DNA of 39,359 nucleotides from Kondoa subrosea (GCA_039545335.1 BCIN01000002.1:2218484-2257842); one strand, 5' to 3'; counted from the first letter of the stretch, positions 3,901 through 25,022 are shown. Program-made: numbers and translations. The notes: generated from the letters alone by a model not told the origin.

Positions 3901-5759
3901 TCAGGTTCTAAGCGATGTAGCCGAACACAGCGCTGCTGGTGATTTGCTTTCGGTTGCTCCAGCTAAAGCATGGAAGAAAGTCAGAAAAGCTTCTGATATG
4001 GTAAGGTGTCGTGTTTTGGAATGCTACACCTACTTATGTGACTTGATCGCCGACAGAATCAATACAAAGAACAACTTCGCCAGTATCGGGAAAACGAGTC
4101 TCAGATTCCACAAAAGCGGCTTTTCATGAAGAGTAGGCTGTTTCTATCTTTACGCTTGAAGTATGCTGAAGTCTTTTAACAGTAAGCCATATCAGCTTGC
4201 CCAAGCTTCCTGTGCCACGTCACGCGACGTACTGCAATATTGGGTTGGACACAAACCAGCAGCAGATAGAATCAGAGCCAATGCTTCTGATGAATGAAAT
4301 GGTTGTGAAGGAAGTTGAATGGGAGCTGTGAGTGATATGCTGGCAGCCCAGTTCGCTTGCTGATTTGGTGATGAACAGGTTGGCTCCTGATGGACTTTCG
4401 TTTACTCTGGCGGTACAAGTAGATCTGAACTCGCCTGACAATCGTCACTTGCGTCCTATTGCTTCTGCACCCATTCAAGAAAACCAGCCAGTCAAGCAGA
4501 AATCGGGCTTCAGAAGCAAGTTGTTCGGCAAGTCTTCAAGACCTGCTTCTGTTGCTCAAGTCCATCAAGCTGCAGCTCCCAGAGCAGATCCTCTGACCTA
4601 CGAGATGAATATGACTGGTCTTATCGGCGAAGCAAGAATACTCTTCAGCAGCATCGAGAAGAAATCCGAAAATCAACGCCATACCTTGAAACTGCCTATA
4701 CAATCCGCTAAAGGTCATGTTGTCGGTGAAATGAGGGTTGATTTCTTCACTCTTCCAGCTATCAAAGGTGTTCCGGGCGATAAACTTCCCCTCTCATTGG
4801 CTGATTGCGTCGATGGTTTGCACAAATTGAGCCAAAGCAATATCAAGTATCATGAGGGTAACCTCAGTCAGATGGGCGCTGATTGCAAAGTAAGCCGATC
4901 TCTCGTACGTTAAGGGCTGGGCTAAAGGTTACCGCAGACTTGGCGTCGTCGAAAGATTACAGCTCAAGGTGACAAGCTCATTGCTTCCAATGAAGTGACC
5001 AAGGCGATGCAGCTTACCATGGATCTTTCACTTGTTGTTGACATTCAAGATTGCAATCTTCCGGCAGACGATACCGAAACACTCGGCGAGGTTGCTGGCA
5101 GCGAGCGAACAGCTCAACGCTCTACAAGAACTGGGAAGTCTTCAGCTCACTCGCAACGGATTTCCGATGAAGAGGAACGTTACCATGTTGAACGAAGCTT
5201 TGCTCTTCACTTTGCGGATGGTTCGGAAATCCAATTCTACGCTGACACCGATGCGGAGAAGGAAATGTGGTTGGAAGTCTTACCCAAAATCATTGGCAAG
5301 TCCGCTTGCAAGCCTCCTATCTGGGCAGCAGCTCTCAATCAGCAAGTAGCTTTGGCAAAAAGTCCATTGTCAGCTGCAATGCAACCTACGTTGTCAAACA
5401 GCTCAAGCAAAAGTGCAGCAAGTAAGCAACGAGTCCCACCTCCTGTAGCAGCTACAAGCAAACAACCCAGAAGAGCTTCAAATTCTCAAATATCGCGAAA
5501 GACATCTTTGTCCCAGCTGCCCTCCCTTCCACCGGTTGCCGGACCCTCAAAAACAGCAACAGCAGCGCGACCAGCCTCAGCTCAAGGATCTGTCAGCAGC
5601 AGCAAACCACCCCGACCGCCTTCTCGGCAATTGGGCGAGCGGCCTGCTTCAGTCGCTTCTTCCGCTGCACCAGCTAATCGTTACCTTACCGGTTCAGTCG
5701 CTCGCTACGCCAACAATGCATCTCAAACTGGCGCAGGACCTCAACGAAGGAGACCATAG
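901..5759 (+). CDS. BUD4: Bud4/Mid2/anillin-like septin-associated protein: long Ser/Pro-rich disordered N-terminus, anillin-homology region and C-terminal PH domain (multi-exon)
   Basis: ATG 901, first intron 2096-2139, stop TAG 5757-5759. The spliced C-terminus reads YHEGNLSQMGADCK|TWRRRKITAQGDKLIASNEVT...ERSFALHFADGSEIQFYADTDAEKEMWLEVL, typical of the Bud4-type PH domain. Confidence 0.8.
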
Positions 5760-5991
5760 TTGCAGGGTGTCGGGTTGCTGTTCGATATAGCACACACATG
5801 TATTTGTCGTTCTTTTCTTATCTAGCATTTCTTTCGCATGTACATATAGGTTGCTTGATATTATCTCGTTTCATGGGTCTCACGAAATGTATGTTCAGAC
5901 GAATAGATAAGAAGATGGTATTTAATGCATTGTAATACCACTGAAAACACACACAGAGTCCCCAACAGATTCGTATTGTCACCTCTTTCCG

Positions 5992-8014
5992 TTAAAGAGC
6001 TGGTTCCGCCAGAGGTTCTGCAATACCCATCTCTTTGTCCGCAGCAGGTTCGGGTTGAATCGCTGCTTTCTGCTTTGCTTTCCGATCTTTCCTAGCTTGT
6101 ACCTTTGCTTTGTTGGCTGCTCTTCTTGCTTGTCTTGAAGCCTTGGGATTGAGCGGTATGGTGACCTTCAAATGTTTAATGTGCGTTGGTATGAATTCGG
6201 GTTGAGTAGGTTGCGACACTACAGCAGTAAGCGGAGCGGGTCGACCGATTTGGGTAGGAATGAGATCAACGGGCTTAGCGAAGGAAGAAGCTGGTGGTAG
6301 TGCATCCAACCAGCTTGCACGAGGTAATTTTAGGTGATGTCTGGCCAAGGCTAGCAATTCGTCTAGTTCTGGTGCAGAGGCCTGTTTGCATATGATTAGG
6401 CGCGGTCCTCAGCAAACGTAAAAGATACACTGACTCTGATGCCGACCACTGCTGCATGGTTAATACCCAAAGCTTTAGCCAATTCCTCATCTGCGCCCTT
6501 GTTCAGCTGAATTACATACATCCCGCTTTTTTCCACCTCTGCTTCGGTAGTCTTGCCTCTCGCTAGTAGACCATTTGCGGTGCAAGCCAAAGTGAGCAGA
6601 TGAGTGACAAGAGAAGGTGGGTTGATGTCAGGCAAACAAACAAAGATCAATCGCAAAGGTGAAATGTCTTCTTCCTCATCTTCGACTGCCGATCCTTGAT
6701 CCACATCCATTTCCTCGATTGTATCTGATTCGATCCAATTTCCTCCTTCAACAGCGACCGCAGCTTTCGCAGCTTTGTCCAGTTGATGCTTGTCCAATAA
6801 TTTGCGATACTTGGCTACAGCTCTTGAAATAGTATCGAAACATTGTTTACCATGGTAACGCTTCGCAAGTCGATCTCTTTCGTTATCCAGGAAAATATAA
6901 GTCGCTTTCGGAGTATCGGAATTAATGATCTTTTCCAAATGTTGCAACTCTTTCTGTAAGTCCAGCATATTCGCTTGTCTTACTGATCGCGGTTGTACAG
7001 GTTCAGGTTGGGCTGGTCTTAGATTCTTCCTGCAGAATTCTGGATCGGAGCGTTCGAGAAGTGGTTGTAAGGAAGACCACATAGATCCCGTAATTTGCGG
7101 TGAAGGCTTGAGACCTTTCTTATTGGTTCGAGGAGGGAAGACAGTTCGGTGAGATAAACCGAAAGGAATTGGATCGTTCTTATCGTTTGGGACGTAAGCT
7201 GGAGGACCAGCATGACCAGTTGTGGTTTGACTTTGTTCCGCCAGTGTACGTAAATAAGCATAAACAGCACTTTCTTTGCCAGGCAACTTAATATTTGGTG
7301 TCGCTTTGCTCTTTTTGCTTACTGAAGAAAGCTTCTTTCGCGTTGCAGCAAGTTCTGCTTTCTTCTCCTTTTTGCTTTTGAACTTCTTGCCCTTCTTCTT
7401 GACTGCTGGAGGACATTTAGGAGGAAGTCCAAGTGCTTGTCTACGCCTTGCATCAATCAACTCTTCCAGACATTTGGTTACCCCGTTGATACCCAATACC
7501 AGACTAGATAAGATTTCAGGCTCATCAGGAGCCGGATTAGGATGATAGGGTCCATCAGATTGACGGGGACGAGGAGCAAATTTGGCTGGAGGTCTGAAAT
7601 CTGGGATACTGACTGGTCTGTCTCTGCCTCGCAACGATATTTCGTGGGTAGCTGGTAGAGTAGAAGTAGAGGCTTCAGGAGCAGTATTTGTATCCATTGC
7701 ATCTCTTGCCTTAACTTGAGCAGCTTTCTTAGATTTGCGCTCTGGTTTACGTCCACCTCGATGCTTGCGCTGGTATTCCTTGTAAGGTGCCACGGCTATC
7801 AGAAGCTTCTTGAAAGCGAGCAGCATCTGATTGCGAGCATGAGTAGGCAGAGCAGGCCTGTGGAAAGAAAGTCAATTCCAAGGTTTGTGTGCGAAGTGTG
7901 CAGAGCGGACCATCGCAAGTCATAGGCGTTGGATACGACGGGCTTGAAGACTTGCTTGCGAGCTTTTGCATCGGCTCGCAGTGATGGAGGAGCGACCTGA
8001 GCAGCGGCACTCAT
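5992..8014 (-). CDS. POP3: RNase P/MRP subunit Pop3/Rpp38-like (L7Ae-type fold) with a large basic insertion
   Basis: Motifs RKQVFKPVVSNAYDLRWPALP (joined across an intron), LVLGINGVTKCLE, LIFVCLPDINPPSLVTHL, LNKGADEELAKALGINHAAVVGI and C-terminal IKHLKVTIP. ATG 8014, stop 5992. Confidence 0.75.
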
Positions 8015-8150
8015 TTGGTTTGGGAGCAAGTTGCAATCTTATGTAATTGGACTAATTTCACTTCTAAACTTAAGCCGACGCCCGTTATACAACCTGTGAT
8101 ACACCATGACACTGAAGAAACTATTGCTGCCTACGCAATTAGTTGTTGAA

Positions 8151-9322
8151 CTAATACATCCCGTACTGATGTTGCTGCTGATAACCAGCCGAAGGCATCC
8201 CAGAGTAAGGAGTAGCGGTATAAGGAGTATACGGATTGCCATACATTGCTTGCTGTTGTTGCTGCTTGAAGTTCGCTGAGGTTGCTGTCGAGTTTCCGCT
8301 CATAATCTGCTCGAGCGCTCGAGCTTTGAGCATTTTCTGCGTATCCTTGTCGCTCCCCACTAGCTTCTGTACTGCACAAGATATAACAGAATCAGTGGAG
8401 ATCAATCAGTAACAGATCAGACTTACCGACTTCTTTCTTCTTCCTCTCTTCAGCTGCCATCTGTTTCGCCATATTCCTCCTCTCTTTCAATTCCATCATC
8501 TCTGACTGCTCTTGCGCTTGTACTTGTCGATCATGATATTTCTTCCGTTCAAGCATATCAACATAGACGGGATCCATGCCTAGAAGTGAAGCCATCCATA
8601 CGCCAAAGACGATCAAAGAAATCGATAGCGATTCAGTGATGATGGAAGCAATACCTATTTGCAAACCGGTTTGATTTTTTGTTATAGTCGACATCCTGCA
8701 AAGCTTGCTCGGTTATCAAACGCCAAGATAAACAGTATTAAGACTCACAGTATATACGCTAGGGGTAGAGGTGGTAGTAGAGGTACCAGAGACAGCCTCA
8801 GGGATCTTCGAATGCGTATTTCCATTTCTTCATAACGCGGATGCGGAACGAGAGCTACAGCCAGCCATTGGCATGCTGCGATAAAGATCACGAGAAATCT
8901 GGAAGCGACCCAAAAAGCAACTACATGCTGCAAATCAGCCTGCATCCTCATAATCGTGGAAGGAGGAACGTACAGATATCTTGCCTTGAAGCTTCTCCGA
9001 AATTGTCTGAAGGTATAAATGCGGAAGTACAAACATCATCCAAGCAAGTCTGTCTTGCAAAAGATCCTAATCGAACAATCGTTCCATTTTCTTTTGGAGA
9101 AGTCCATTGAAATCCGAAAAACATTTTGCCTAAATCTGAAGTGGCGCAAGAAAGACCTGAATGAAGAACGAAGAAGAAAAGACCTGCTCCAATGATGAAT
9201 AGTGGTAAAGCTCGCTTTGTCCAAGAAGTCCGGTCACTTTGAACTGGCGTTTGATCAGTAGAGCCGTACTTAGAGAGATCTTCATAGATCGTCTGAGGTT
9301 GCTGGGAGTCAACGATGGACAT
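8151..9322 (-). CDS. Four-TM membrane protein, SUR7/PalI (claudin-like) family-like, with a Q/Y/P-rich C-terminal tail
   Basis: Four exons splice in frame and give four hydrophobic segments. The first loop has VRLGSFARQTC-x4-C, a degenerate G-L-W-x-x-C...C motif. The tail ends QQQQQAMYGNPYTPY...YGMY*. Confidence 0.55.
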
Positions 9323-9875
9323 CCTCTGTTGTTATTGTCTTGAGATCATATCGTGATGAAATAGGCGTTCGCGAAGGAGGACCGTCAGGAAGGTGAAATG
9401 ACAGGTATAGGACAAAGGGATCAAACAATTCAAAAGATACAGACGTGTCTGCAGACGACGCCTACGAGCATACTTGGGCGGAGGAGGCCCTGCACTATCG
9501 CGAAGAGCTTCGAAAGCGGGCAAAAGCTGGCTCAGAAGAACCCTTCCTCCAGCCTTTTCATTAGCGCCAATAGGTCTCGGAGCGCATATTACTTACCGCT
9601 GCGTCTATCGGCTTCAGGAGACGGATAGAGGAGATATCGAAAACGAAATTATCGAAATTAATCAATCACGATGAACGCTAGAACAAGGACTGAAGCAGCG
9701 TAATCGCTCGAAAACAGCAGCACAATGCAGTACACAGAGGAAGACATTAAAGCAGTCGTGTTTCGAAGAAAGCTCACGGCGAATAATAGAAAGAGTTAGA
9801 GATCGAGGGACTATATAACATCGTGAGATAGTCGCTGCATTACATATAAATACTGGTAGTAGCGTAAGTGCACCC

Positions 9876-10920
9876 TCAAATTCGTCTGTCTATACATGTT
9901 TTACAACCTGCCATAATCTTGAGATCCTGCGAGTCCTGCTCGTTTGTTCTTTCATGCTTTTGATCCTTGCCCGGCCCAGCTGCCCATGTAAGTGTCGAAT
10001 CGTGGCCAGAATTCTGTTCAAATGTACCTAGATCAGCCAGATCCAGGAAATTAGGGAATCAAATCTTACCCCATTCGCCATAGCATGACAATACCGAAAT
10101 GATCTGGAAGGCATAGGCAGCATAGTCTGAAACAGCAGATGAATTGGCTGCTGAGTAATGAATGAGGTCAATGCCAACTTACAATGTCTGAAGACATCTC
10201 CAGGTTCCGCATGTTGTACATGACTCGCTGCTAAACCTGCTCTGAACATAGGTAGCGCTCCTAATCTGTTGAAATTGCTTGCTGCTTCTGTGAACTGCTC
10301 TTGTATAGCCAAAGTCGCAGATAGGGTGAGGACAAAAGCGGAGAAATTTATGACTGTTCCAGTGAAGAAGATCCATTTCGCTACTGAGTATTTCATTCTT
10401 CTTAAAGGCGAGCTTGGACTTGTGAACCGGGCCAGCATTGGAACGAGTAGAAGAGGAAAAGCCACGACAACCATTATGACTGAGACAACTAAGACAATTG
10501 GTGTCGTTCGAAGAGCCATTGGTAATGATCGCTCGACCAGAGCTGAAGGTAGATTCAGTGCATCCATCGATGCAATGTAATTTGGTTCCAGAGCTGTTCT
10601 CGTGCACGTGAGGACCGGCGTTTCGTATTGATAACACGACCCTGCAATAAGTCAGAAGAAGAAGAAGCTTTACGATGTTTGATCTCACCCAGGATGCCCA
10701 AGTATATGCCTGTCGGTTTCGAAGGGTCCAACGTCGGATCGTCAACCGCTGGCAATAGTCGCAGGACCGAGAATCGAGGGTCTTTCACTATCGGTATGCC
10801 AAAGAGTGAAGTTAACAGCATCACGAAAGCCGCTACATGAAAGAAGAAGGGCGCAAAGTGTACCACTTGCGATCGCGAAACTGGAGATTTGCTTCGAATG
10901 GCTTGGATAAAGTTCGACAT
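9876..10920 (-). CDS. SUR7/PalI/Rim9-family four-TM membrane protein (3' end uncertain)
   Basis: TM1 FAPFFFHVAAFVMLLTSLFGIP, spliced loop motif IYLGILG|SCYQYETPVLTCT, three further hydrophobic helices and canonical introns. Confidence 0.7.
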
Positions 10921-11378
10921 GCTCGCTGGACTATGCCTTGATGCTTGATAGATTGCAGATGGATGCTACAGGTTTCCAGACCTCTGCGAACAGTCGGTAA
11001 GGGCTTTTGTCGCATTTTCCGTCTGCCTTGGGCGATTGGTCCTTTTGTGCGAACAAGACAAAAGAGATTTTACCGAAGTTGCGCTGTCTCTCTATTTCGA
11101 AGCTATGGTGTCTTCGAATAGTACAGAAGACACCCGAGCACCATCAGAGGCTTGTTGACATGCTCTGCGCAAATGTCGAATTTCCCTCACATATGGAATT
11201 TGCAGCGCTTCGATGGATCACAGTTCTTGTCAGGTCTTTCTTCATCCTTGCGTCATGTCTGTATACTTTACGTGTCGCTTCTGAGTGGATTGTCATCTTC
11301 TTTGTCGTCTCTTCGCTCACGCCCTCTTGACCGCGCCTCTTTTACGAACGACTCTTGCTTGCGATCTATCGAGGCCTG

Positions 11379-12940
11379 ATGCTGGTCAATCACGCTCGAA
11401 GGAGAGAAGAAAAGAAGGCGCGCAAACTGCTGGCAGCTGCGCCTAGAAGACAAGTTTCTGTTCTGAAAGCTGCGCCGAATCAAGTTCAGAATCCATACCA
11501 TTCGCCTACCAAGAGGATTGATCCTGCTACTGGACTAATCATTCCTCGAGATGCCGTGACTGAGGAAGATCTCCTGGCTATTTCGCTGAAAGAACAGAGT
11601 TCTTCATCGCATTGGCCTATTTGGATTGCTGGCAGCATTCTGATACCTATCTTAGCTGCTCTAGTTATGCTGTTCATGATTGTATTTGGCTCGGGCACCT
11701 TCATCAGCTCTTCCTCAAGCGGCTTCCTCTTACATCTCGAACAAGGCTCAACGAAAAATAGCAGTGCCACACTTCATTCTGATCTCTGGTTAGGTCTTTC
11801 AGGCTACTGTATCAAATCTCAGGATGCTACCAAGAACTGCTCGACATCGGCCTTGAACAGTTTCTATGCTCAAGCTTATACTCAAGTTAGCTTGGGCTCT
11901 TTACAAACCTCCGTGCCGAACAATTACGGACCTCAAGCATCATCTTTACTAGCTTCTATGGTGTTCTTCATCACTTCCATAGTCTTTCAAATCTGGGCAG
12001 TCATAGATTTACGAAAAGCAGAAAGGGACGAATTCGCAAAACGGCAAAGATGGGTACATGAAATGATCGTAGCCAAACGATTGGAGATTTTCTTCCTCGT
12101 ATTTGCTGTTGGAGCTTTTCTTTGTGGCATTAGCGCAACTACTACTTTGGCTTCTTCTGTTTCTGCTGCTTGTGCAACTGTCAACGCTTTAGGACCTAGG
12201 ATTGATGATACAGAATTTGGGAAATGTACGCAGGGTAATGTTACGACTGTATTACTGGTCGCGTGGATGTGCACTGGTTTGGCTATATTGACGCAATTGT
12301 GCGTGATTGCTTTCGATGGCCTGAGCAGGAAATTGCGCTTCGAATAGTGAGTGGCACAAGTCTGCCGTAGAGACACTCTCTGATAAGATGCACAAGCGAA
12401 CAACTCTATCATGATGTAGGTGTTACACATCGCAATTAAGTCTAGCTAATGATCGAAGCAGTTGCAAGCTTTTGCAAACGATGACTTTGTGCAGCTTCAG
12501 AATAAGCTAAATCATATGCGTGCGCCAGAAGACTTGCTCTCGTCTTGGTCACTCTTGCTCACTCTTGCATCTGACCAGATTCGAAAGCGGAAGCTATACA
12601 TGCCGCATCAGCCGCGTACCAAGACTTTAGGCGGAAAGAGCTCGAAGTACGTTTGAATTCCATGTCATAGCTACATGTTTGATTTTCTTGCCAGGACTAC
12701 ATTGTTTTTGAAGACGTTCAATCAGTTCTGAGGCGTCAAGAACAACTCATTTTGGCCCAGCGATATGAATTCGAGAACCTATCAAATCAGACGCGACCGC
12801 CTGTCTACGCTGCACCTGTGGAACAACCGGTCTTTGTTCAGCAACAGCAACCAACTTATGCCATGCCTGTCCAAACACCTTATTACAGCACTGCACCCAT
12901 AAGCAGCGGGACGATGGCATATGCTCAGCAGTACGCTTAA
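11379..12940 (+). CDS. SUR7/PalI-family four-TM membrane protein with a Q/Y/P-rich tail (start uncertain)
   Basis: Motif DLWLGLSGYC-x8-C and four TM segments. The apparent TAG at 12345-12347 overlaps a gtgagt donor; splicing continues YEQLYHD|LQAFANDD...|HSKAEAIHAA...|DYIVFED...AYAQQYA* to TAA 12938-12940. Confidence 0.7.
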
Positions 12941-13058
12941 TCACCTTCTTTTGTCTGTATCTTTGTAGTTGTGCAATATCAATACGTATTACGTAATGTA
13001 TCGCTCAAACGCGGCTCAAATAAATTACCTTCCAACTTGTTGCGAACTTCCAGCAACG

Positions 13059-15488
13059 ATGTCTGTCCCTCGTAGCAGTGGTCTGGCATTACAAGATGAT
13101 CCAGCTACACCTAGAACCGATGCGACCGTTTCTTTTAGAGATATAATTCCAAAGCCAGATCATCCTAGAACTGCTGGCATTGACAAGCACGATGCGGTGT
13201 CCTGGTGTGAAAGCAGAAAACAGATTGATGCACCTGCATGGTTGATCAATAGACTGCAAGCGGAAAACTTGGAGACGCCTTGGATTGGTTTCACTGTAGA
13301 TGGGAAAGTGGATATGTCTGTTTACAAATGGGCGAAAGATGAAGGAGCACCAGTAGAGAAGGCTTGTGATGCTGCTCAAGCTCTAATGCAGCTGTTATCG
13401 GAAGAAGAGAAGACTAAGACTTGTTTGGACATCGACTCGGATCTGCTTAGACTATGGTCAAGTAAGCAGAACCCTGTCTCTTCACTTGCTCTCTCTGATT
13501 TCGAATCAAGATCCAGAGCTTTATGTTAATCCAGGTGGCCTTAGACTAGACGAAATCTCGAAAGACAAGCAAGAAGCGGTTCATGCCATTCTCAAGGCTT
13601 CGCTATCCGAGTCAGGCTTCAAGAAGACGCATGGCTGCATGCTGACCAATGGCTTCTTGGGAAAACTAGTATGTCATTACACAGTCTCTTCGATACCGCT
13701 GCTTATGTATGTTGAGCAAGGTTAATGGAGAGAAAGTACTCAACGAGCATTCTTACAACTTCAGACTATTCGGACATCCAGACCATCAGAAACCTTGGTA
13801 AGTTCTGCCGTACTCGTTGTTTTCCTATGGTTACTTACAGCTGGTTGAAAGGGGATGGACTATCTTTGGGCATCATCTATGTCTTTCCGTTATGTTTGTA
13901 GGCAGAAGAATGGTCATTGGTCCAACCTTCCTAGGTGCTGAACCGGATAGGATAGATGAGGGACCTCACGAAGGACTGCGCTTGTTTAGCGTAGAAGAAA
14001 TAGAGGGCCTCAACCTGTAAGTCTTAGACAGCCGGAAATCTGTTGAGTCTTAAGTGTTGTGCGTAGTATGCGAAGCTTGAAACCTGAACAGCAGAAGCAA
14101 GCACAGCTGAATGAAGATATGAAAGAAGGTCTAGCAGAAGATAGGTGGAACCCCTTTGACGAAAGGCATTTAGGCGGAACTCGACAAGATAACAGGTGAG
14201 TCGCTTTACTTATCAGTAGTATGTTGCTGATACTTGTGCTCAGAATTGTACCGTTCGTCTTGTGTTGGCTATATCAACAAGGCTAAGCTTACATGTCTCT
14301 TAACGCTAATCTAGATACGGTATGGAGTCATCATATGACATTTATATGAGTAGCTGACAGCATATACAGAGGGCTGCCCTGTATCTACCTTCAGCCCAGA
14401 TCAAAAAGCTCAAGTCATGCGCATTTTCGGCTCCTTTAATGACTATTTGCCGCAAGGCCCTTACGATGCTCGCATGAAGTTGCTCGAATCAAATCTAGAC
14501 AAGACCTACTTCGCTTGTATGTACAAAACTTTAAACCTGCTGACTGCTGTTCTGATACTTCGAAAGGGATCGGGAAGTTTGGCTTGGGCGATCCCTACTA
14601 TTATCGCCTACATTCTCCCGTCACTTTCTGCGAATTTGATTTCCACTGCGGAAGTGAGTCAGAGGTCTTCAAAGCGTTGATCCACTCTAATATACTTCGA
14701 CAGTCTTCCTCACGAATACGGTAGGTTGAACTACAGCTACGCATACAAAGCTTACGCGCGAACAGTCACCAGCAAAATGTCATATCCATACTATCAACAG
14801 GCTACCGAACAAAGCAGATTACGGGCGAGCCTTGATACATCAATATGAAAGAGAACAAGCGGAAGCCGAAGGGAAATCAGTTCCTATCAATCTGTGCTCA
14901 GTGGTACGTATATTACTGTACTTGGTCTCAGACGTGTACTTACATTCAAGACAGAACACTGCTCCCGAGCGTGCGAAAAGATTGATTGGTATCCTCATTG
15001 AAGACATCAAGGATCGATATAGCCTCAAACATGCAGCTAATAGCTCCAGTAAGCAGCTGCTTCAGTTGTGCGAGAAAATCTCTCACAGTTAAGACTAGCT
15101 ATCGAAGGTGTAAAGCCAATGCTGCTATCAATTCAACCGCCTCGTGAGATCAAAATTTTGTGTTTGTAGCAAGCTAATATTACTATTTCAGCCGGTATCC
15201 TCTTCTGTGCTTCTATGTGGACTCCAGAACAGCAAGAAGAGATTCAACGAATCGCTCGAGAAACGATTCCAGGCATCAAGACTGCTGCAATTCCTAGTGA
15301 GCAAGCTTTGCTATCGACTTCTCTGCCCTGATATCGCACATCAGCTGGTTTACAAGTGGAGAAGGGTCCAGATGCTGTCGTAGAGGTAAGGTTACATTGC
15401 TATACATCCGCTGCTCTTTCTAATAAAGTTCTCTCTGAAGTTTCTCAAGGCAAAGATAGACGGGATAATGCAAGGGACTCAAGCCTGA
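13059..15488 (+). CDS. DUF3500-domain protein fused C-terminally to a ~115-aa uncharacterised domain (NTAPERAKRLIG...FCASMWTPE...GLQVEKGPDAVVE)
   Basis: DUF3500 motifs WSNPELYVNPGGLRLDE, YNFRLFG, WGWTIFGHHLCL, PTFLGAEPD, YYYRLHSP, EFDFHCG and HIHTINRLPNKADYG. The frame continues with no stop into the second domain through introns 14904-14954, 15049-15098, 15144-15191, 15297-15344 and 15386-~15440. Stop TGA 15486-15488. Confidence 0.8.
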
Positions 15489-15589
15489 TAGTGCAGCTTA
15501 TGTAGTATACGATTCCTGTGTACCCTGTCGAAAGGCAATGGCCCGACCAATCATGCGGTAGATTACAGGAAAGATGTCGGAAAACAATC

Positions 15590-16928
15590 ATGGCTTTCAG
15601 ACGTACTATAGCAGCTATGTCAACTTCATCCTGGTCCAGATTAGTACGATTCGTACCAAAATCCAGTCCTTCCAAAGTTCTTATTGGAGAGCCTGTCAAT
15701 TCTACGATTGATTTGGGTCTTGCTTCGTTCGCTGGAGATAAGATCGATGTCAATGTCTACGGTAGGCTGATACCTCGCTCAGCCAGTCATTTAGCTCATC
15801 AAATTATAGATGGAACCTCTATCTTGAATGCTGGAAAACAGACAGGCCAAGTTGAGCAAGTCGAAAGGTTCGCCTTGTCTGAATGTCGAATTCGGGAGCT
15901 CAATAGATCTGACTCATACTTGATAGACTTCTATCTCCGCTGTCAGAGGCTGAAGTTGGCACTATCCGCTGCATTGGTCTCAATTACGAAGGTCATGCGA
16001 AAGAAGGTAAGTTGCCCTGACGCTCAAGCGGGGTACATCTGACAGCTTTCGGTTTGTAGGAGGTTTCCCAATTCGTACGCACTGCTCTAGACTAGAGATT
16101 GGGAGCTGAACTGAACTATCCTGTAGCCAAAGTACCTGTCATTTTCCTAAAGCCAGCAACTTGCATACACGACCCTTATCCAGCTAAGATCATTGTACCC
16201 AAATGGACTATTCCTTCAGATTCGGCAGACTTTGAATCAGAATTAGGCGTAGTAAGTATTGCTCGTTTTAAGCTAGTGATGTAGTTTCTGATCACAGAGA
16301 TCCAAGGTCATATCCAAAGACTGCAAAGATGTGTCTGTAGAGAACGCAATGGACTACGTCTTAGGTTATACATCAACAAACGATGTCAGCTCAAGGGAAT
16401 CCCAATTCGATCAAAGCCAGTGGTGTTTCTCAAAAGGTAAGTTTCTATCGCTCTCTGTTCGCTCATTACTCATTGCATATGTGACAGGATTTGACAAAGC
16501 TTCACCTGCCGGACCTTGCATTGTATCACCAAAACTTATCCCAGATCCATCAAAGCTGAAGCTAAGAGGTTTACTGAATGGCAAAGTAGTACAAGAAAGT
16601 GGTCTCGAGTGAGTCAAGCATATGTTCCCATCCGCATGAGAAAGCTGAACTGTATCGTAGCGATCTCATCTTCGATGTTCCTCGACTGATTTCAGATTTA
16701 TCAAGAGGGACAACACTTCGAGCAGGCTGCTTGATCCTGACTGGTACTCCAGCAGGAATCGGTCAGTCATCTCTTAGCCTTAGCTTCAGCTGTAATTGGT
16801 CGCTAAATTTCCCGCGTTTAGGTTGGATGAGAAACCCAAAGATCAGGCTGCAAGAGGGTGACGAATTCAGAGTAGAGATCTTGCCCTCAATTGGTACTCT
16901 TATCAACGTTGTTGAGCATGAAAAGTAG
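15590..16928 (+). CDS. Fumarylacetoacetate hydrolase (FAH) family protein, FAHD2/Fmp41-like
   Basis: Motifs WSRLVRF, IRCIGLNYEGHAKE, PVIFLKP, ADFESELGVVI, YVLGYTSTNDVSSR, WCFSKGFD and LRAGCLILTGTPAGIG. Stop TAG 16926-16928. Confidence 0.92.
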
Positions 16929-17088
16929 AGAGAAGCGGAATCGGGTATTTAAAACCGCCGAAGTTGCATAGGATTTGAAAGCAACCTCTTGTCCTCTTAC
17001 AAGCCATAATATACTCAAGCGACTTGTGCTTGCGTCGTCCTCCACTGAAGCCAGATTTCAACTGGCCCTGGCCTTTCCTCAAACCATT

Positions 17089-18132
17089 ATGTCAGCCAAA
17101 CTCACGCCTGCCTTCAAGCAAGTCTTGCTCCGAGGTGGTGATCCAGCCAAAGGACCATCAGCAACAGCACTTAGATCTCTCTTCAAGAGATGCGAAGAGA
17201 CTTCCGCAAAGCATTCAGTTCCTACAAACCATTGGTTGGCTTTAACGAGCGCTTCCTTCTATACGCTCAACACACCTGGAAGTCTGGTTCATCTGTATGG
17301 ACATTTGAAGGAAACTGTTTCGGCTGTAGAAGAGCGAGCGAAGAGGGCTGCTGTTATGCGAGAAACTGGGTTAAAGTGCATTTCGTGAGCATTTGTATGA
17401 TTCGCTCGGGCCTGCAATTTACGGATGCTTAGATTCATCGGCATAGCCAAGGTGATTCCACTTCTCCGGGCGATCGACTTTCTTCTAACGAGCAAGGCAG
17501 ATCATCAATGAACTCGGTGTACTCAGTTCAGCTTTCGATCCCGAAGTAAAGGAAGCGCTGTCGAAGCAATCATCGAGGTCAGCTTCTCTCTTTTTGCGAT
17601 GACCTGTCCTCACAAACAACCTTAGATCAGTCAAACCTGATAATCTCCCAAACGTCCGTACTTCAGGAGTACGTTCATTTTGGATATCGGCTAGTAGTAG
17701 CTAACTTGTATCTCTCAGTCTGATTTATGGAAAGCAATCTACGCGCCTCACGATACCAAATTGATCAATAAGCTGCAAGATTATCATCCTGATCTACCTG
17801 TTCATATTCTCGAATCGCACTATGGTCCTCTTCTTTCTAATCCAGCTCGTCAAGGGGATGTGGACCGAGTAGGTACATCTTTAGTAGCTATTGCTTGCTT
17901 GAGAGGTAAATTGGCCTCCGTTCTACCTTTAATCAAATTATGCTGAACAATTACTCTAGCCCAAGGTGGTGTGGGACCTCAAGTCATTTCCCATGTACTA
18001 GGACTCAAGAAAGCTGGAGCTGAAGCTGGCTGGTTAGCTACTGATGAAGGGTCAGAATGGACTGTTGGTGTAGTTGACGAAATCATCAAGATGTCGGAAG
18101 AAGCAGCCAAGGAACCTCAGGCGAAGTTATAG
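17089..18132 (+). CDS. AhpD-like/carboxymuconolactone-decarboxylase-fold fungal protein (Pxp2-like) with C-terminal PTS1 AKL
   Basis: Motifs MRETGLKCISFIGIAKIINEL, LWKAIYAP...KLQDYHPDLPVHILESHYGPLLS and [28 protein letters not shown]. Ends EPQAKL* (TAG 18130-18132). Confidence 0.7.
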
Positions 18133-18435
18133 GTAGAAAACAATGTATTTGTGATAAGGGGACATATCGTCCGTATTACTACTCTTGCCAATGTCAAAAA
18201 CCTTGAAGGTGTCCGAAAATCATGCAGAGCGCAGTGGCTTCTTCTCATTCGACGAGTTCATCTTCCTCGTGTAGAGTCATCAGTCGATTGGACTCTGCCT
18301 CATGATACGGCTGCTCTTTTCGCTGATTAAAGCTTTGACCTTTGCGAATTGCAAATTGAAATTGCCAAGTCTGCGCTCGAACCTCACTATCCATTCTGTG
18401 ATGCTGTTTTCTCGTTCTTCTGCAGCATCTGCACC

Positions 18436-20539
18436 ATGTTTTCTCTCCTCTCCAATGGCTCTATCCAGCTGCAATCACCTGACCTGGGTGGAGGCAGAAG
18501 CAAGCGGCCTCGAGCTATTTCGAACAGACGCATTATAGCTGGCCTACTCTGCGTTGTTCTACTCATAACTCTGGCTCTGTACCAAAAGCAAGAACCTGTC
18601 AGAAGATACATCAATACATCTGTTGGCGATATTTTGCAGCCAGATCTTTCTGAAGCAGTTTCTCAAATAGAATCAAGCTGTCCAAGTCCTCTTATACCTC
18701 CTCTACCCGATTTATCTTCTCCTTTAGATCTATATCAATGTGTAGAGCAGCCTTCTATCAACCCAGAATTCAAAATTTCCATCTGCCCATTGAGAGAAAG
18801 ACAAACCTGTAACACATTTACTGTGCTTGTGGAAAGGACGGATATTCTTGTATGCAGGGATTCAGATGCACTACCGATAACGAGTTTCAAGGAAGAGGCA
18901 GAAATGGTCAGGAATAATCTGGGGCCTGACGCATTTGAGGTGGTCATTTCTGGTGCACAGAAGCTATCAGTTGTGATTCCATATCAGGTCAGTCATTTTC
19001 TATTGAAAGGTTATCTTAGCTGATGCGATGAATCAGTACAACCACAATACAAGGCCGTGTCAATATGCTTTTCCTATCACGTTGAGCAATGCTGGCAATT
19101 TCAGCATCCAGGTCTATCACATGTATGATCGTTATCAAGGTTTCAGTGAAATCATGGAGAACCCTGATACCGGAGCGCTATGGGACGCGAGGTGAGCCAA
19201 ACTCATTGAGTTTGCACATGTCCATTGAAAAAATGGATCAGGCAGTCAGATCGTTACGATATGCCTCTAGTACCAAGATTGATCGATACACCTCTGCTAC
19301 CCGAAGGCGGTCTATCTAGCGATCAATTACCAGCCAGTATCGTTTGCCCATCTTCATGTCGTTCTTTCGCCTTCCCGACTCGACCAAACACTTCTCCAAC
19401 CGGTTCCGTTCGCTTTCTAGCAGGATCGGAAAATTTACCACTATGCAGCTTTAGAAGTGTCATTGAAGGCGTCTATCTACCTGATCCTTCCCCCAACCGT
19501 CAAAATGCAGAGGTTCCGGTCGTTCCATATCGATTTCAGCCTCTCGGATGTCGGTTTCACGGAGCTAATATGGCGATATTGAACGGTACGGATGGTATGA
19601 GGGAAAGAGAGAAGTGTTTTGCAAATAACAAGAAAAGGAGGATCATCATTCAGGTATGCAGCCTTGTCAGGCGGTCATTCTGGCGCTGAACCTTTCTCAC
19701 AGGGAGATTCTCATGTTCGCATGACCTTTGATGGTCTTATACCAAGACTGCTTGCGGAAGGAGATGAAGTGCCTATATATGTACGCGTATTACATCGTTA
19801 CCATTACCATGACTGATTATTATTTGCAGGAGAAGGCAAAGAACAAAACGCAGGCACTCGGTCCTGATCTAGTCTTTGACTTCAAGTGGGATCCACATCT
19901 CAGATATCTCATTGGAGAAGAGCAGCCTTACGAGACGGATGTCCTGATCATCTCCAGCGTGAGCACGATCTTGCACTGCTGTCTTCATGTGGCTGACATT
20001 TCGATCATGCAGGGATCGCATCAAGCTCGAAAAAGACATAGCACACGCAGTTTGTCTTACTATCTAATCGTATGAAGTTGACCTGAGACTTTCCTCCCTC
20101 TAGCCTATATGAGTGCCATGACTGCAGCTTTCACTCGCGCCCGCGCGATGTACCAAGGGATTAATGCACCTCCGACACCAAAGGTCATAGTAATTAGCGT
20201 TCCTTCAAAACTAGTGCGTACTCCTTTTTGGCTGGATATATTGCTCAAGCTCCTCGTTTATAGCCTCAAGAGCAACAATGGAGAACACAAACTCGACTGC
20301 AGAACTGGTCTGCTCGTGCTCTAGCGAACGCTGCTACTATTGGCATACCAGATCTCAGTCTGGTTGATGGCTTCTCGACTACCCTGCCCTTTTCTCGTCT
20401 ATCGCCAGATAATATAGTAAGATTTATGACTGTGACAACGCTTTCAATACTGATCTTGAGGCAGCATTTTCGTGATTTACCACCTCAAGAAGCCTGGTTT
20501 ATGATCCTACTGCATCAAATGAATCTGTGCGGATCGTAA
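18436..20539 (+). CDS. Type II membrane protein with an SGNH/PC-esterase-like domain; putative polysaccharide O-acyltransferase or esterase
   Basis: N-terminal TM IIAGLLCVVLLITLALY. YRFQPLGC precedes the spliced RIIIQ|GDSHVR motif, and the C-terminus has SPDNI|HF (DxxH). Stop TAA 20537-20539. Confidence 0.6.
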
Positions 20540-21104
20540 TGATCACAATTCGGCTGTTGATCGACGCTGACTGTGTCTTCGCAATAATTTGATCCTCATT
20601 CTCTCTTCTGTTCTTCCTTTCTCCTTGACTTCTGTTTCAGGCTAGGTGCCTCCAGAAGCGTCGGAGGCCGCACTTGAAGTGAGATGGACCATCTGGCCCT
20701 CGTAAGAAGACTGTCGTTGTAGCCAATTCCTGATCAGCATAGATCACGCTTTCTACATGCTCTTTCCACACAAAGAGATCCGTGTATCGTATTCGCTCTA
20801 TCCTTGTTCACAGGCCGAAGCAGAATCGTACAAGTAGAGGAAGCTTGATTTGCTGATGGCATAATCTCGCAAGATACACCTCAGGCTTCTCCTTCTCGAG
20901 AAGAGACCAGTCCGGAGCAAGGAGTCCTTCCGAGGCGGTGTGCCGCTTCCATTAAGTCCAAAGTCTTGTGTGATTGTATATCAGCGGCCAAAATTGTATA
21001 ATTGAGCGCACGGAACTCGAGAATATAGTACAATATTAATATCTGACAGCCTCTATCCCTAACAACATACAAATATAACATATAGGTTTGAATTCTAAGG
21101 ACCC

Positions 21105-22575
21105 TCATCGATCAGCAAACGGATTCTTCCATTTCGATCCAGCAGAACTTGTCGCGCTCTTCCATGTTCCAGTCTGTTCTTCATTTAACCGAATAGGGAA
21201 GAATTGGGGTACAATTGAATCCCCATCTGATGTTATTGTAGATGCAGTCAGGGATGTACTGCGGGAAAGAGTATCTTCTTCTTCGTTAGAAGAGGCTTTG
21301 GTAGCTGCTGTTTTTATTGATAATCGTTTAGATTCAGCTAAACTGTTGATGGAATAGCTGTCTATGTCTTTTGGTAATCGAGCTGCTGGTGTTGGAGCTT
21401 TGAGCAGTGGGAATCGAGAACCGACAGTACTTGCTGCTGACATTGGTGATTCAGCATCCACATCGTCTGCGAAAGGATTGGAAGAAGTTTGAGAATTGCG
21501 TTGATTGTTTCCTGCTTGATTATGATATAAGAAGAGACCTTGAGTGCCAGCTTCTAGTTCAGCTGGATTGAGAGAAAGAGCGCTTTGGCGCGGAGTTGTG
21601 GTATAGCCGGAATTGGGAGTGAGTGCCCGCTGAATCATGTAAGGTTCCGTGACGTTGTTGACTGAAGTAGTAGTATAAACCGAAGAAGATCCATCATCGA
21701 TTACTGGTCGAACACTTGACACTCGTTTATTTGTCTGCTTGCTCAGCAGCCGCCGATATACAAAGTAGAAGTAGCCCGCTAGAGCTGTGGTGAAGATGAG
21801 GAAAGCGAGGAGAATGACAGAAGAGTGAGGTAGCAGCGATTCCATCCGATGCATTTTGACAACTTCCGTTAAGCATTTGTCGCTGGTTTTCTCGTCAGCT
21901 CACTGCATTCGTGAATAGGTCTATCAAATGACATACTCTTTTGAGTTCTGCACCAAGAAGGGCACAGAGTTTTGTGAATCTGCGGGGCAAAGTCAGTCAC
22001 GACCAAGTAAGACAGAATCTCGTTAGACAACTCACATGAGCCAGCATGGTCCACGATGACGACCCAGAGGTTCTTTCCAGCTTCTACATTCGTTTGCCAT
22101 TCAAGGGTCGGCCCTCCCGACTGATTGTAATACACGTTGAACATGCTGGGCGTAAAATCTTAGCCCAATTGTCAGACAAATGGACTTCATAACGCACCCA
22201 TCCGAGACTACTTCCCAATCCTGTCCCGTTGGTCCAACACCGTGCGGATCTTGTTGATAGAATTCGACCCGCTGTTGAGAGAACGTTCAGGAAATTGACG
22301 GACAATGGTCTCGAAGTCTCAGACTAACCACTGGTTGTACTCCGCCTTGCCATGATAAAGCTATAATACACCAGAGCATGAGCCAACAGAAACCCCGAGA
22401 TGAAAGAGCAATTTCACTGACTCGTATTCTTGCATTGGGTGGGCTGCGTTAGGAAGGTAATAGAGTCTGCTCCTCCTAATGGATCATCAGGCATAGTGTC
22501 CGTCTCGTCACTGGTCGACCACCGTTAGAAGCCTAGAGCTTTTGTGTACCAAGAGAATTTCCTTCCTTACCTCAT
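21105..22575 (-). CDS. Single-pass membrane protein with a small N-terminal beta-rich domain and a Ser/Thr-rich cytoplasmic tail
   Basis: Exons give MSDETDTMPDD...TQPTQC...TLSWQGG...LEWQTNVEAGKNLWVVIVDHAG, resembling the basidiomycete Ser/Thr-rich cell-surface protein domain. TM VILLAFLIFTTALAGYFYFVY is followed by RR, and the tail has two NPFAD motifs. Confidence 0.55.
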
Positions 22576-23400
22576 GGTTGCGAATTATTTATTGGCCGAT
22601 AGCCCGACAAGGTTCTAGGGCCAAGACTGGATGGACTGCGAAGAAGACCGAAGTGACTGAACCGGCTGTACTGTGGACAGCTTGATCGAAGTGTTGGCGG
22701 ATTGAGAGAAACTTGAAGGCCGCGATAGGTTCTTTTGAGCAAGTTAAGCCGAGTGAAGTCAAGGCACAGCGGCAATTCAGCGGATATCAGGACAGGACAG
22801 GACAGTGTCAAGACGGTTGCGATGTTCTACAATGCAACGTCAAATCTGCGCTGAAGTAGTATATTAATCAAATACGTTATATGCAGTTCAATGTTTCTCG
22901 TGATTTGCTTCGGATCTTCTATCCCTGTCCGATTGAGTTCGTTGAAGCTGCTAGCCAGCAGTACATATGATTAATAGTTTCGAAGGTTGAGAAACAGATT
23001 TGCGAGATAATACGGGTCCACCTGGTATGAAGAACAGGAGAGAAGAAGGAAAAGGATAAAGAGATAGGAACAGGAATGCGTACGCTAGCCAAGCAATAGC
23101 CAGAATGAGAAATCGGAAAGCCTTCGATAATTAGAGATGATATTACACATTTGCCCGTTGAATCATTTGATGCCAGTCGATCCTTTCCCAGTCGATTTCG
23201 TTGCGTCGCATACACTTCGTTCTATTGCTTCACTCTTCTGCTTCTTCCTCCTCAGCAGGCTGCATGTCAAAGCAATTCAAATTCAAATTTGCGTGCACGT
23301 CGTATTCGCAAAGACTTACAGTATCGGATTCAGCCATCTTCTTGGCAGCACTGCAGTAACTACTTTAGCCACTACGTCCGCCTTCTCTAGATAAGAAAGC

Positions 23401-24562
23401 TCACGGTTTAGCACGACCAGATTTGCGAGCACCCTCGGCAGGTTCTTTTTTAGTAGTTTTTGCCTTCTTAGCCTTAGGTTTCTCTTCGTCTTCGTCAGAT
23501 CCAGTAGCTTCTGCTTCTTCTTCCTCAGATTCTGCCTTTTTGGCTTTCTTCTGTTCGATCAAGCCAGGTGCCATCAGTATACTACTGAATGTCTGGTCAG
23601 AAACGAACAGCAGGAGCCTTGCGTTTGGTAGGCTTTGGCTTTTCCTCTTCCTCTTCGCCATCATCGTCTGCTTTCTTGCCCTTCTTCTATTCATCACATA
23701 AGAGTAGGTCAAAGTGTGTTTAATATCAACGCACGGCAGGCTTCTTCTTAGCAGCAGCTTTTTCTTCCTTAGCAGCGGCTTTCTGAGCTTCCTTTTCTGC
23801 CTTGGCAGCAGCTTTTGCTTCTTCTGCTTCTCTGACAACTAATTAATATACGTCAGTAAAACATCGACTTTGAGGCGCTTCAAATCAACTTACCAGGTGT
23901 AACATCCTCCTCAGCAACTACACATTGATGAGACATACTGAAGGGAAATAAGCGCTATTGCTTACCATGACCAGTTTCCCAAGCTTTACGAATACGTTCT
24001 TGATCTTCTTCACGCATGTCTTCAAAGCCATCCAATTCTTCTGGCTTGTCTTCAGTCTCGGCTTTCATGTTACTGATAACCTCTGTTCCCAACGGTCATT
24101 AGGCCATTGCGCACATAAAAGACGGTAAGCAATGTGGAAACTAACTCTCGGTAAGACAGCCCCAATGTTTCCACTGCATGCTGTCTTTTGCTTCACCATC
24201 ACCTTTGGATGGGATCTTGGCCAGAGTACCAATACGAATTTCACCTTTCACTGTATTCAATTGATTATATCAGCTTTGCAATTGTATTCTCGAAGGGCCG
24301 TAAAACGTACAGAGCTTGTTAGCTGGACCACTGTCCTTGCATGCTTTCTGTATTCATGGACGCGTCAGTGGATCATACAGTAGCCGATTGAAGATGCATA
24401 CGCTGGCTTTGCATCCAGCTCTGTGCGGTGATTCAAGTTAGAAAGAGGCTTGAGATCATTCTGAGACGATTGCAAACCTGTTGTTGGCAGAGTACTCGAT
24501 TCTATGGCACAGGATTAGCTCCATAGGACCCTATCTAGAGTTAGAGCATACCTGTAAGGCAT
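23401..24562 (-). CDS. PARP-type zinc finger (zf-PARP) protein with a Lys/Glu/Ala-rich tail
   Basis: Spliced MPYR|IEYSANNR|AGCKAS|KACK...KGEIRIGTL...QWKHWGCLT...EELDGFEDMREEDQERIRKAWETGH, followed by a low-complexity KKAK tail. Stop at 23401. Confidence 0.85.
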
Positions 24563-25022
24563 CGCGCTCGTTGATGTAAGAGAAGCTAGAATCCGCAAAA
24601 CAACGTCAGCGGGTCATCGAAAGCGCAGAGCTGCAGAGAGGCTGACTGAGATAGACTTGTAGTGATAGCTGAGAGAGAGTTTCGCTGAGGATTCAGAGAC
24701 TTCAGACTTCGATTTGACAAAGTTAGCTCCGACGTATCAAGAAACGCCCAAAATAATGATGCCTTGGTAAGCGACAACCGCAAAGTCGGAAGAGCCGCTA
24801 TTGGGTGAGTGCTTTGCTTCATTCTCTTACTTTCTGTCACTTCTGCCGCTTCCGATTTCTTGCTTTCTTTCGTTTTCCTATTGTTTTCGGGTTTTCACTC
24901 TGTAGCACTTTGTAATGCAAGCTTCAAATGGTGCTGTCGTAGTGCTCAAAGTTCTTCTTCTCATCGGCTCTTTCATTTGAAGACCTTTCTCATACGATTG
25001 TACCATAACTATCGGCAGAACG

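What the first reader, a model, noticed from the sequence alone, without database searches (positions are those of the whole stretch)
14766..15488. DUF3500 enzyme fused in frame to a small uncharacterised domain (Rosetta-stone fusion)
Seen: after the DUF3500 end motif HIHTINRLPNKADYGRALIHQY there is no stop and no new in-frame ATG. A short linker (EREQAEAEGKSV) runs into PINLCSV|NTAPERAKRLIGILIEDIKDRYSLKHAANSSTIEGVKPMLLSIQPPPGILFCASMWTPEQQEEIQRIARETIPGIKTAAIPTGLQVEKGPDAVVEFLKAKI, assembled across five canonical introns and invisible in the ORF track. From recollection (not verified), this ~115-aa sequence occurs as a stand-alone hypothetical protein in other fungi. Inference: the fusion links two unknown-function families in one pathway or complex, and the alternating beta/alpha pattern suggests a small flavodoxin/receiver-like fold.
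Basis: partly seen in the sequence, partly recalled or inferred. Interest (0 to 1): 0.75.

Follow-up and report, generated by a model that had tools for sequence, protein, structure and literature searches.

The report
Two gallate-pathway enzymes fused together
A yeast-like fungus has joined two neighbouring enzymes of a recently described pathway for breaking down gallate-type plant aromatics into a single protein, which confirms a partnership that was already published and does not reveal a new system.

Summary
The DUF3500 gene (ATG 13059) has no stop after its family end motif. It runs through its own 18-residue tail into a 117-residue domain spread over five GT..AG introns, and stops at 15486-15488. 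An uninterrupted ORF on a metagenome contig (L001) has the same DUF3500-then-small order. It aligns to the spliced model at 72.7% identity with only two small gaps, which supports the exon joins it spans (residue 80 to 549). Between the two genes the small domain is under strong constraint (pN 0.145, pS 0.78), while the linker is not.

Elsewhere the small domain is a stand-alone protein of about 118 aa in Dikarya, with no Pfam family and a predicted four-stranded flavodoxin/CheY-like fold. It carries a conserved C-A-S-M-W motif. It very probably belongs to the "conserved short protein" family (AN0331/ATEG_04855) of the fungal 1,2,3,5-tetrahydroxybenzene pathway (Martins et al. 2023). In that pathway DUF3500 is the proposed ring-cleavage step and a FAH-like hydrolase follows. 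A FAH-like gene starts 101 nt downstream in the window.

The Rosetta-stone inference is therefore right, but the functional link is already in print. What is new is the fusion itself. It also occurs in the opposite order (L008, and Exobasidium P0020 by annotation only). No transcript data were available for this window.

The parts
13059..14828 (+). DUF3500 part of the fused gene. Exons: 13059-13461, 13511-13668, 13721-13797, 13852-14016, 14067-14195, micro-exon 14244-14256, 14372-14516, 14567-14653, 14704-14720, and 14766 onward.
   Evidence: Exon fragments hit Pfam PF12006. The spliced model is 63-69% identical over 391-434 aligned residues to proteins that carry PF12006. It keeps 84 of 87 invariant columns of A2, and one of the three apparent changes is an alignment artefact.
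14829..14882 (+). Linker. This is the DUF3500 protein's own C-terminal tail (18 residues after D-Y-G-R), with no stop codon and no ATG.
   Evidence: The tail resembles the free C-terminal tails of Rhodotorula orthologues. Against L001 it is unconstrained: pN 0.61, pS 0.64 over 13 codons.
14883..14903 (+). First seven residues of the small domain (P-I-N-L-C-S-V), in the same exon as the end of DUF3500.
   Evidence: They align with residues just after the start Met of the stand-alone proteins (M-x(2-7)-P-V-N-L-V-S-V).
14955..15488 (+). Rest of the small domain in five exons: 14955-15048, 15099-15143, 15192-15296, 15345-15385 and 15441-15488 (TGA 15486-15488). The C-A-S-M-W motif lies in exon 15192-15296.
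   Evidence: GT..AG. Identity is 85.1% to P0001 and 83.6% to the L001 tail. 27 of 29 invariant columns of A1 are kept; the two changes are V->I and I->L.
15590..16928 (+). FAH-like hydrolase gene, whose ATG lies 101 nt after the stop of the fused gene. It probably encodes the next pathway step.
   Evidence: Pfam FAA_hydrolase scores 66.2 and 54.3 bits (cut-off 23.9) on ORFs 16292-16609 and 16590-16925. Homologues of it lie beside the small gene in 43 of 80 metagenome loci.

Best explanation
This is a genuine in-frame gene fusion encoding a protein of about 554 aa with two catalytic parts. The N-terminal DUF3500 part is the enzyme proposed to open the ring of 1,2,3,5-tetrahydroxybenzene. The C-terminal 117-aa part is the fungal 'conserved short protein' needed to convert the product, 5-hydroxydienelactone. 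The FAH-like hydrolase encoded 101 nt downstream would take the following step. Shown here: the DNA-level fusion, its presence in a second organism, purifying selection on both parts with a free linker, the stand-alone state of both partners elsewhere, and their habitual adjacency. Inferred: the fusion arose by loss of the DUF3500 stop codon, the spacer, and the start codon plus first few residues of the small gene. Also inferred: it fixes 1:1 dosage and keeps the second active site close to the first, which would help with an unstable substrate and a reactive lactone. The conserved residues of the small domain follow the C-terminal ends of strands 1-4 (N-T after strand 1, H-x-G-N at strand 2, C-x-S-x-W after strand 3, T...P-x-G at strand 4). 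That is the usual active-site edge of a flavodoxin-like sheet, so a Ser or Cys nucleophile acting on the lactone is the most likely chemistry.
For: One open frame with canonical introns. L001 carries the same fusion as an uninterrupted 471-aa ORF, 72.7% identical to the model. Nei-Gojobori counts, window against L001: DUF3500 part pN 0.179, pS 0.808; small part pN 0.145, pS 0.777; linker pN 0.608, pS 0.638. Family-invariant residues are kept. The small family is stand-alone. The small gene lies beside DUF3500 in 22 of 80 loci and beside FAH-like in 43 of 80. Of the 28 loci with at least 3 kb on both sides, 22 have one or the other. Locus tags put the two genes 2-3 genes apart in Kwoniella shivajii and Rhodotorula toruloides. 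An opposite-order fusion sits within a single exon in L008 and is annotated in P0020. Pathway roles come from deletion mutants in PMC10832562. That paper describes a short protein with a 357-nt CDS, no domains and a conserved Ser at position 64. Eurotiomycete members of my family have the motif Ser at residue 64. Fold.
Against: There is no transcript or protein evidence for this window. The sequences of AN0331 and ATEG_04855 were not available, so identity with the published short protein rests on length, motif position, lack of domains and gene neighbourhood. The catalytic roles of both parts are hypotheses in the paper; no enzyme assay exists. The only solved DUF3500 relative (9x86) is titled a dehydratase, not a dioxygenase. 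My gene model lacks one conserved Glu at the micro-exon, so a local sequence or model error cannot be excluded in the DUF3500 part. No monooxygenase or transporter gene was detected in the scanned flanks, 13 kb upstream and about 11 kb downstream.
Confidence: 0.8

Rival explanations
1. There are two products, not one. The small domain is made separately from an internal transcript, by non-AUG initiation or by cleavage of the linker, and the shared frame is only a by-product of very tight gene packing.
For: Genes here are packed tightly: only 101 nt separate the stop at 15488 from the next ATG at 15590. The linker is unconstrained, so it could hold a processing site. No RNA data were available to exclude this.
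Against: There is no in-frame ATG anywhere in the last DUF3500 exons or the linker. The only nearby ATG (14845) is out of frame, and there is no room for an intron that would restore the frame. L001 keeps the same stop-free, ATG-free junction at 73% overall identity, which would be unexpected if the frame did not matter.
Confidence: 0.08
2. The small domain is not an enzyme. It is a ligand-binding or accessory subunit with a receiver-like fold that the DUF3500 enzyme or the next step needs, for example to hold the reactive product.
For: The best structural matches are non-catalytic receiver and MID domains. Fusions in both orders fit a subunit relationship as well as they fit consecutive enzymes. 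The paper shows only that the deletion mutant accumulates 5-hydroxydienelactone.
Against: The nearly invariant C-x-S-x-W sits directly after strand 3 and before helix 3, and the other conserved residues line the same sheet edge. This pattern looks like an active site. In many genomes the small gene pairs with FAH-like rather than with DUF3500 (43 against 22 of 80 loci).
Confidence: 0.12
3. Artefact or relic. An assembly error hides a stop or start codon at the junction, or the small gene lost its start and is decaying.
For: The window is a single unverified assembly. One splice site in the same gene (the micro-exon donor) does not fit unless a base is missing.
Against: An independent contig has the same fusion. 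27 of 29 invariant residues are kept. pN/pS is far below 1 in the small part. All five introns are intact with canonical ends.
Confidence: 0.04

Closest known systems
Aspergillus 1,2,3,5-tetrahydroxybenzene (gallate) pathway genes: DUF3500 AN10530 / ATEG_08221-22, short protein AN0331 / ATEG_04855, FAH-like AN12484 / ATEG_04856 (Martins et al. 2023, PMC10832562; passages and supplement text read)
   Same: The same three gene families, the same order of steps, and the same habit of clustering. The paper's Figure S4 legend describes Basidiomycota clusters containing these genes. Its cluster list includes species in which I found the small protein and DUF3500, among them Cryptococcus JEC21, Rhodotorula toruloides, Kwoniella and Cutaneotrichosporon.
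   Different: There the DUF3500 and short proteins are separate polypeptides, and in Aspergilli they are not even neighbours. Here they form one reading frame. The words 'fusion' and 'fused' do not occur in that sense in the paper or in the FAMeDB paper.
Opposite-order fusions: metagenome locus L008 and Exobasidium rhododendri CBS101457_004880 (P0020)
   Same: The same two families in one frame.
   Different: The small domain is N-terminal. In L008 the join lies inside one exon, on a 1043-nt contig. P0020 is an annotated model only, and I could not inspect its DNA.
[quoted passage not shown]
   Same: Consecutive aromatic-catabolism steps joined in one polypeptide in Basidiomycota.
   Different: It involves different protein families and a different pathway. 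It is an analogy, not a relative.
ApmL / Amc20, PDB 9x86, 'dehydratase in amipurimycin biosynthesis'
   Same: It is the only solved relative of the DUF3500 part (profile E 5.7e-17; Foldseek E 1e-12, TM 0.82 on the target).
   Different: It is a 297-aa protein of an antibiotic biosynthesis pathway, with 19% identity, no small domain and a different stated reaction. I found no paper on it.
CheY-like receiver / flavodoxin-like domains
   Same: The predicted alternating strand-helix topology. VIA-align gives Z 10-11.6, rmsd about 3 A and about 100-107 aligned residues.
   Different: The model has four strands, not five. There is no acidic pocket or phospho-acceptor Asp, and no FMN-binding loop. 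Identity is 6-16%. Foldseek found no PDB match at E <= 1e-3.

Membership tests
DUF3500 (Pfam PF12006) | Sequence match to the family profile over its whole length | tested here: met
   Exon fragments match profile positions 2-56 and 277-297 of 297, each below the whole-protein cut-off because they are fragments. The spliced model is 63-69% identical over 391-434 aligned residues to nine proteins carrying PF12006. 84 of 87 invariant columns are kept.
Fungal conserved short protein of the tetrahydroxybenzene pathway (AN0331 / ATEG_04855) | About 118 aa with no known domain | tested here: met
   The domain is 117 aa. Stand-alone relatives are 100-144 aa. The ATEG_04855 CDS is 357 nt. No Pfam family reaches significance in any of the 28 members scanned.
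Fungal conserved short protein of the tetrahydroxybenzene pathway (AN0331 / ATEG_04855) | Conserved nucleophilic Ser at about residue 64 | tested here: met
   C-A-S-M-W is invariant in A1 and present in the window. The Ser is residue 64 in Eurotiomycete members P0068 and P0220.
Fungal conserved short protein of the tetrahydroxybenzene pathway (AN0331 / ATEG_04855) | Clustered with FAH-like and/or DUF3500 genes | tested here: met
   Among 80 loci, 43 have FAH-like and 22 have DUF3500. In the window the gene is fused to DUF3500 and FAH-like lies 101 nt downstream.
Fungal conserved short protein of the tetrahydroxybenzene pathway (AN0331 / ATEG_04855) | Direct sequence similarity to AN0331 or ATEG_04855 | not testable with these tools
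   Their sequences were not held. A search from Eurotiomycete member P0068 returned only 6 hits, none from Aspergillus.
CheY-like receiver domain | Acidic residues after strand 1, phospho-acceptor Asp after strand 3, and five strands | tested here: not met
   The model has four strands. N-T follows strand 1 and C-A-S follows strand 3. The likeness is at fold level only.
Flavodoxin | FMN-binding phosphate loop after strand 1 (signature recalled, not taken from a call) | tested here: inconclusive
   After strand 1 the family has V-N-T-A-P-E-R-A. There is no Pfam flavodoxin hit; the only weak hits are to B12-binding in 2 of 28 members, best E 0.016.
Fumarylacetoacetate hydrolase family (PF01557), for the neighbouring gene | Profile match above the curated cut-off | tested here: met
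   66.2 and 54.3 bits against a cut-off of 23.9.

The most novel reading that the evidence does not exclude
The short protein is not merely the next enzyme. It is an obligate physical partner of the DUF3500 ring-opening enzyme: a two-component system in which the small flavodoxin-like subunit captures the unstable ring-fission product or lactone, perhaps covalently through its Cys/Ser motif. The repeated fusions in both orders would then be the footprint of that complex. This would define a new kind of aromatic ring-cleavage machinery, and the natural fusion would be the form in which to solve and assay it.
Probability: 0.25. Interest if true: 0.65.

Novelty: new variant of a known kind. Interest (0 to 1): 0.45.

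Why it matters
The 1,2,3,5-tetrahydroxybenzene route is a recently described central pathway for gallate and syringyl-type lignin and tannin fragments. Its two key proteins have no demonstrated biochemistry. Natural fusions of exactly these two proteins, in both orders, are independent genomic support for the order of steps that was proposed from mutants. They suggest the two activities benefit from proximity. They also offer a ready-made single polypeptide for expression, assay and structure work. For annotation, the finding warns that this 117-aa tail is a second enzyme, not a DUF3500 extension.

Tried and rejected
- RNA evidence: no RNA holder was listed for window 14300-15700, so the transcript test could not be run.
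- Whole genome: none is held for this window.
- Complex prediction for the stand-alone Rhodotorula pair (P0052 + P0004): no answer, score 0.00, the alignments were not used, and the controls were not folded. This is no evidence either way.
- Direct link to Aspergillus: a search from P0068 gave 6 hits, none from Aspergillus. The supplement holds no gene identifiers for the basidiomycete clusters.
- Small domain: no Pfam family, no PDB sequence relative at E <= 0.1, and no Foldseek PDB match at E <= 1e-3. The ESM Atlas returned only unnamed Ascomycota clusters, scores 0.87-0.89.
- Prokaryotes: 19 pattern matches in genome contigs, none confirmed.
- Earlier scan notes: nothing found.
- Papers: none holds both 'amipurimycin' and 'ApmL'. 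The 10 listed of 105 papers holding 'Amc20' looked unrelated by title.
- A start for the small domain at ATG 14845: rejected, because it is out of frame with no room for an intron.
- Rest of the pathway in the window: no monooxygenase, MFS or transcription-factor Pfam hit in ORFs of at least 55-60 aa across 1-13000 and 16900-28300. Short exons could hide them.
- One apparent loss of an invariant Gly in the DUF3500 part was an alignment artefact.

Full report
**What is in the sequence.** The region is an intron-rich eukaryotic gene on the + strand. Splicing by coordinates in scripts gives a single frame from ATG 13059 to TGA 15486-15488. It has 15 exons and a 554-aa model. The Pfam DUF3500 profile reaches its last position (297 of 297) at about 14828. 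No stop codon or in-frame ATG follows. The frame runs through 18 residues (14829-14882) into P-I-N-L-C-S-V (14883-14903), then across five introns of 48-55 nt, all GT..AG. The first of these (14904-14954) is 51 nt and stop-free, so retaining it would not break the fusion.

**Is the fusion real?** A metagenome scan using an alignment of stand-alone relatives (A1) returned 80 loci. These were the best 80 of 106 confirmed stretches, out of 199 pattern matches.
- Locus L001 (2885 nt) holds an uninterrupted, 5'-open ORF of 471 aa. It is DUF3500 from about residue 80, then a 15-residue linker, then the small domain and a stop.
- L001 aligns to my spliced model over 466 positions with 339 identities (72.7%). 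The only gaps are 1 aa at the micro-exon and 3 aa in the linker. The exon joins it spans (model residues 80-549, so all but intron 1) are therefore supported by an independent sequence that needs no splicing.
- Nei-Gojobori counts between the two genes: DUF3500 part pN 0.179, pS 0.808 (341 codons); small part pN 0.145, pS 0.777 (112 codons); linker pN 0.608, pS 0.638 (13 codons). Both domains are constrained and the linker is free.
- The window keeps 27 of 29 invariant columns of the small family; the two changes are V->I and I->L. It keeps 84 of 87 invariant DUF3500 columns, and one of those three changes is an alignment artefact.
- Because L001 has none of the introns in the stretch it covers, and its opposite-strand 406-aa MIP-like ORF is also uninterrupted, it may derive from RNA. 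That is an inference only.
- No RNA run was listed for the window itself, so transcript-level proof is missing here.

**Is the tail the ordinary DUF3500 C-terminus?** It is not. A search with the first exon product found 36 DUF3500 proteins of 236-536 aa. Sixteen of them reach the D-Y-G-[KR] motif, and all sixteen stop 8-25 residues later. The window's linker resembles these free tails (R-E-Q-E......K-S-V in Rhodotorula). The join therefore sits at the very end of DUF3500. The small gene's Met and first few residues are missing, since stand-alone forms begin M-x(2-7)-P-V-N-L-V-S-V.

**What is the small domain?**
- A search with the ORF around its largest exon gave 31 hits. Twenty-nine are proteins of 100-144 aa from basidiomycete yeasts and one ascomycete. 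One is a 208-aa model with an odd N-terminus. One is a 536-aa Exobasidium protein.
- A profile search of 1.84 billion representatives gave 517 hits at E <= 1e-3. All 150 listed are 216 aa or shorter.
- Of ten representatives looked up, eight carry fungal names (six Ascomycota, two Agaricomycetes), one is a Physarum transcript and one is unnamed.
- No Pfam family matches and no PDB sequence relative exists.
- An AlphaFold model of the closest stand-alone member has pLDDT 85.3. Its order of elements is strand-helix four times, then a final helix pair.
- VIA-align places the model among CheY-like receiver and similar flavodoxin-like domains (Z 10-11.6, about 100-107 residues, rmsd about 3 A, identity 6-16%). 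Foldseek gives nothing at E <= 1e-3.
- The receiver signature residues are absent. The conserved residues (N-T, H-x-G-N, C-A-S-M-W, T...P-x-G) fall at or just after the C-terminal ends of strands 1-4. That is the usual active-site edge of this fold.

**What it does.** Five papers in the library hold 'DUF3500'.
- Martins et al. [quoted passage not shown]
- Deleting the DUF3500 gene led to transient 1,2,3,5-tetrahydroxybenzene accumulation. Deleting the short protein led to accumulation of 5-hydroxydienelactone. Both catalytic roles are proposed in the paper and have not been assayed.
- The supplement gives ATEG_04855 a 357-nt CDS. It also describes Basidiomycota clusters with the same genes and lists clusters in Cryptococcus, Rhodotorula, Kwoniella and Cutaneotrichosporon.
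- My family matches this description in length, lack of domains and motif. The Ser is residue 64 in Eurotiomycete members.
- It also matches in gene neighbourhood. In the 80 loci, DUF3500 lies within the locus in 22, a homologue of the window's FAH-like gene in 43, both in 6 and neither in 21. Of the 28 loci with at least 3 kb on each side, 22 have one or the other. Locus tags place the pair 2-3 genes apart in Kwoniella shivajii and Rhodotorula toruloides.
- I could not align the domain directly to AN0331 or ATEG_04855, so this identification is strong but indirect.
- In the window, the FAH-like gene begins 101 nt after the fused gene's stop. No monooxygenase or transporter was detected in the scanned flanks, 13 kb upstream and about 11 kb downstream.

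**Other fusions.** In L008 the small gene has its own ATG and two introns. Inside its last exon it runs without a stop into a DUF3500 N-terminus. Exobasidium P0020 is annotated with the same small-then-DUF3500 order, but its DNA could not be checked. With the window and L001, that makes at least two architectures. The other 20 loci that hold DUF3500 keep the two genes separate, most often divergent (10 loci) or in small-then-DUF3500 tandem (7 unfused).

**Comparison and novelty.** The fusion is not mentioned in the passages I searched ('fusion' and 'fused'). The only solved DUF3500 relative is 9x86, titled a dehydratase of amipurimycin biosynthesis. This is a caution against taking 'dioxygenase' for granted. 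The DUF3500 model itself is only moderately confident (pLDDT 63). A complex prediction for a stand-alone pair gave no answer and counts neither way.

**Verdict.** This is a real, conserved fusion of two consecutive or cooperating proteins of a known pathway. It is a new variant of a known kind and of moderate interest. The organism is probably a basidiomycete yeast: the closest small-protein relative is from Naganishia at 85% identity, and the gene has many introns of about 50 nt. That is an inference only.

Noticed in passing
window 14196-14371: A 13-nt micro-exon (14244-14256, donor GTCTTG) is needed to keep the DUF3500 frame. Even so, the model lacks the Glu of the conserved P-[FY]-E-G-C motif seen in all orthologues and in L001. 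Restoring it would need a non-GT donor at 14258 or one extra base, so this may be a local assembly error or an unusual splice.
   Followed up: partly
window 15489-15592: Only 101 nt separate the stop of the fused gene from the ATG of the FAH-like gene (15590). An out-of-frame ATG at 15574 opens a short upstream ORF. The 3' and 5' UTRs must overlap or be very short, so co-transcription is conceivable.
   Followed up: no
L008 251-958: An opposite-order fusion. The small domain has its own ATG and two introns, and continues in the same exon, with no stop, into a DUF3500 N-terminus. The contig ends after 1043 nt.
   Followed up: partly
P0020 (Exobasidium rhododendri, 536 aa): Annotated small-then-DUF3500 fusion with a 10-residue Ser/Thr-rich linker. 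The model is truncated at the DUF3500 C-terminus.
   Followed up: no
P0006, P0007, P0017, P0028 (alignment A1 columns 1-25): Some stand-alone small proteins (Cryptococcus CNA08170, Papiliotrema, Naematelia, Cryptococcus sp.) carry an extra N-terminal stretch of about 25 residues rich in R/S/T, which may be an organelle-targeting peptide. Papiliotrema and Kwoniella dendrophila each have two paralogues on one contig.
   Followed up: no
P0075: A 115-aa full-length homologue (E 1.1e-26) comes from a Physarum polycephalum transcriptome. The family may therefore reach beyond Dikarya, contrary to the paper's statement, or this may be contamination or gene transfer.
   Followed up: no
PDB 9x86 against the DUF3500 model: The first solved DUF3500-family structure is titled 'dehydratase ApmL in amipurimycin biosynthesis' (molecule name Amc20). 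It covers profile positions 103-423. This is relevant to what chemistry the fungal DUF3500 enzymes perform.
   Followed up: partly
L001 1517-2737 (- strand): An uninterrupted 406-aa ORF with two N-P-A motifs (MIP/aquaporin-like), convergent with the fused gene and only about 100 nt from its stop. Synteny differs from the window, and the lack of introns in both ORFs hints that the contig derives from RNA.
   Followed up: no
window 850-3664 (+), 6399-7871 (-), 11331-12344 (+): Long open frames of 338-538 aa have no Pfam match at E <= 0.01. They may be lineage-specific or low-complexity proteins.
   Followed up: no
window 25362-25568 (+): An exon-sized ORF with a weak RNA polymerase Rpb4 match (E 1.3e-4, 22.6 bits, below the 25.6 cut-off).
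   Followed up: no
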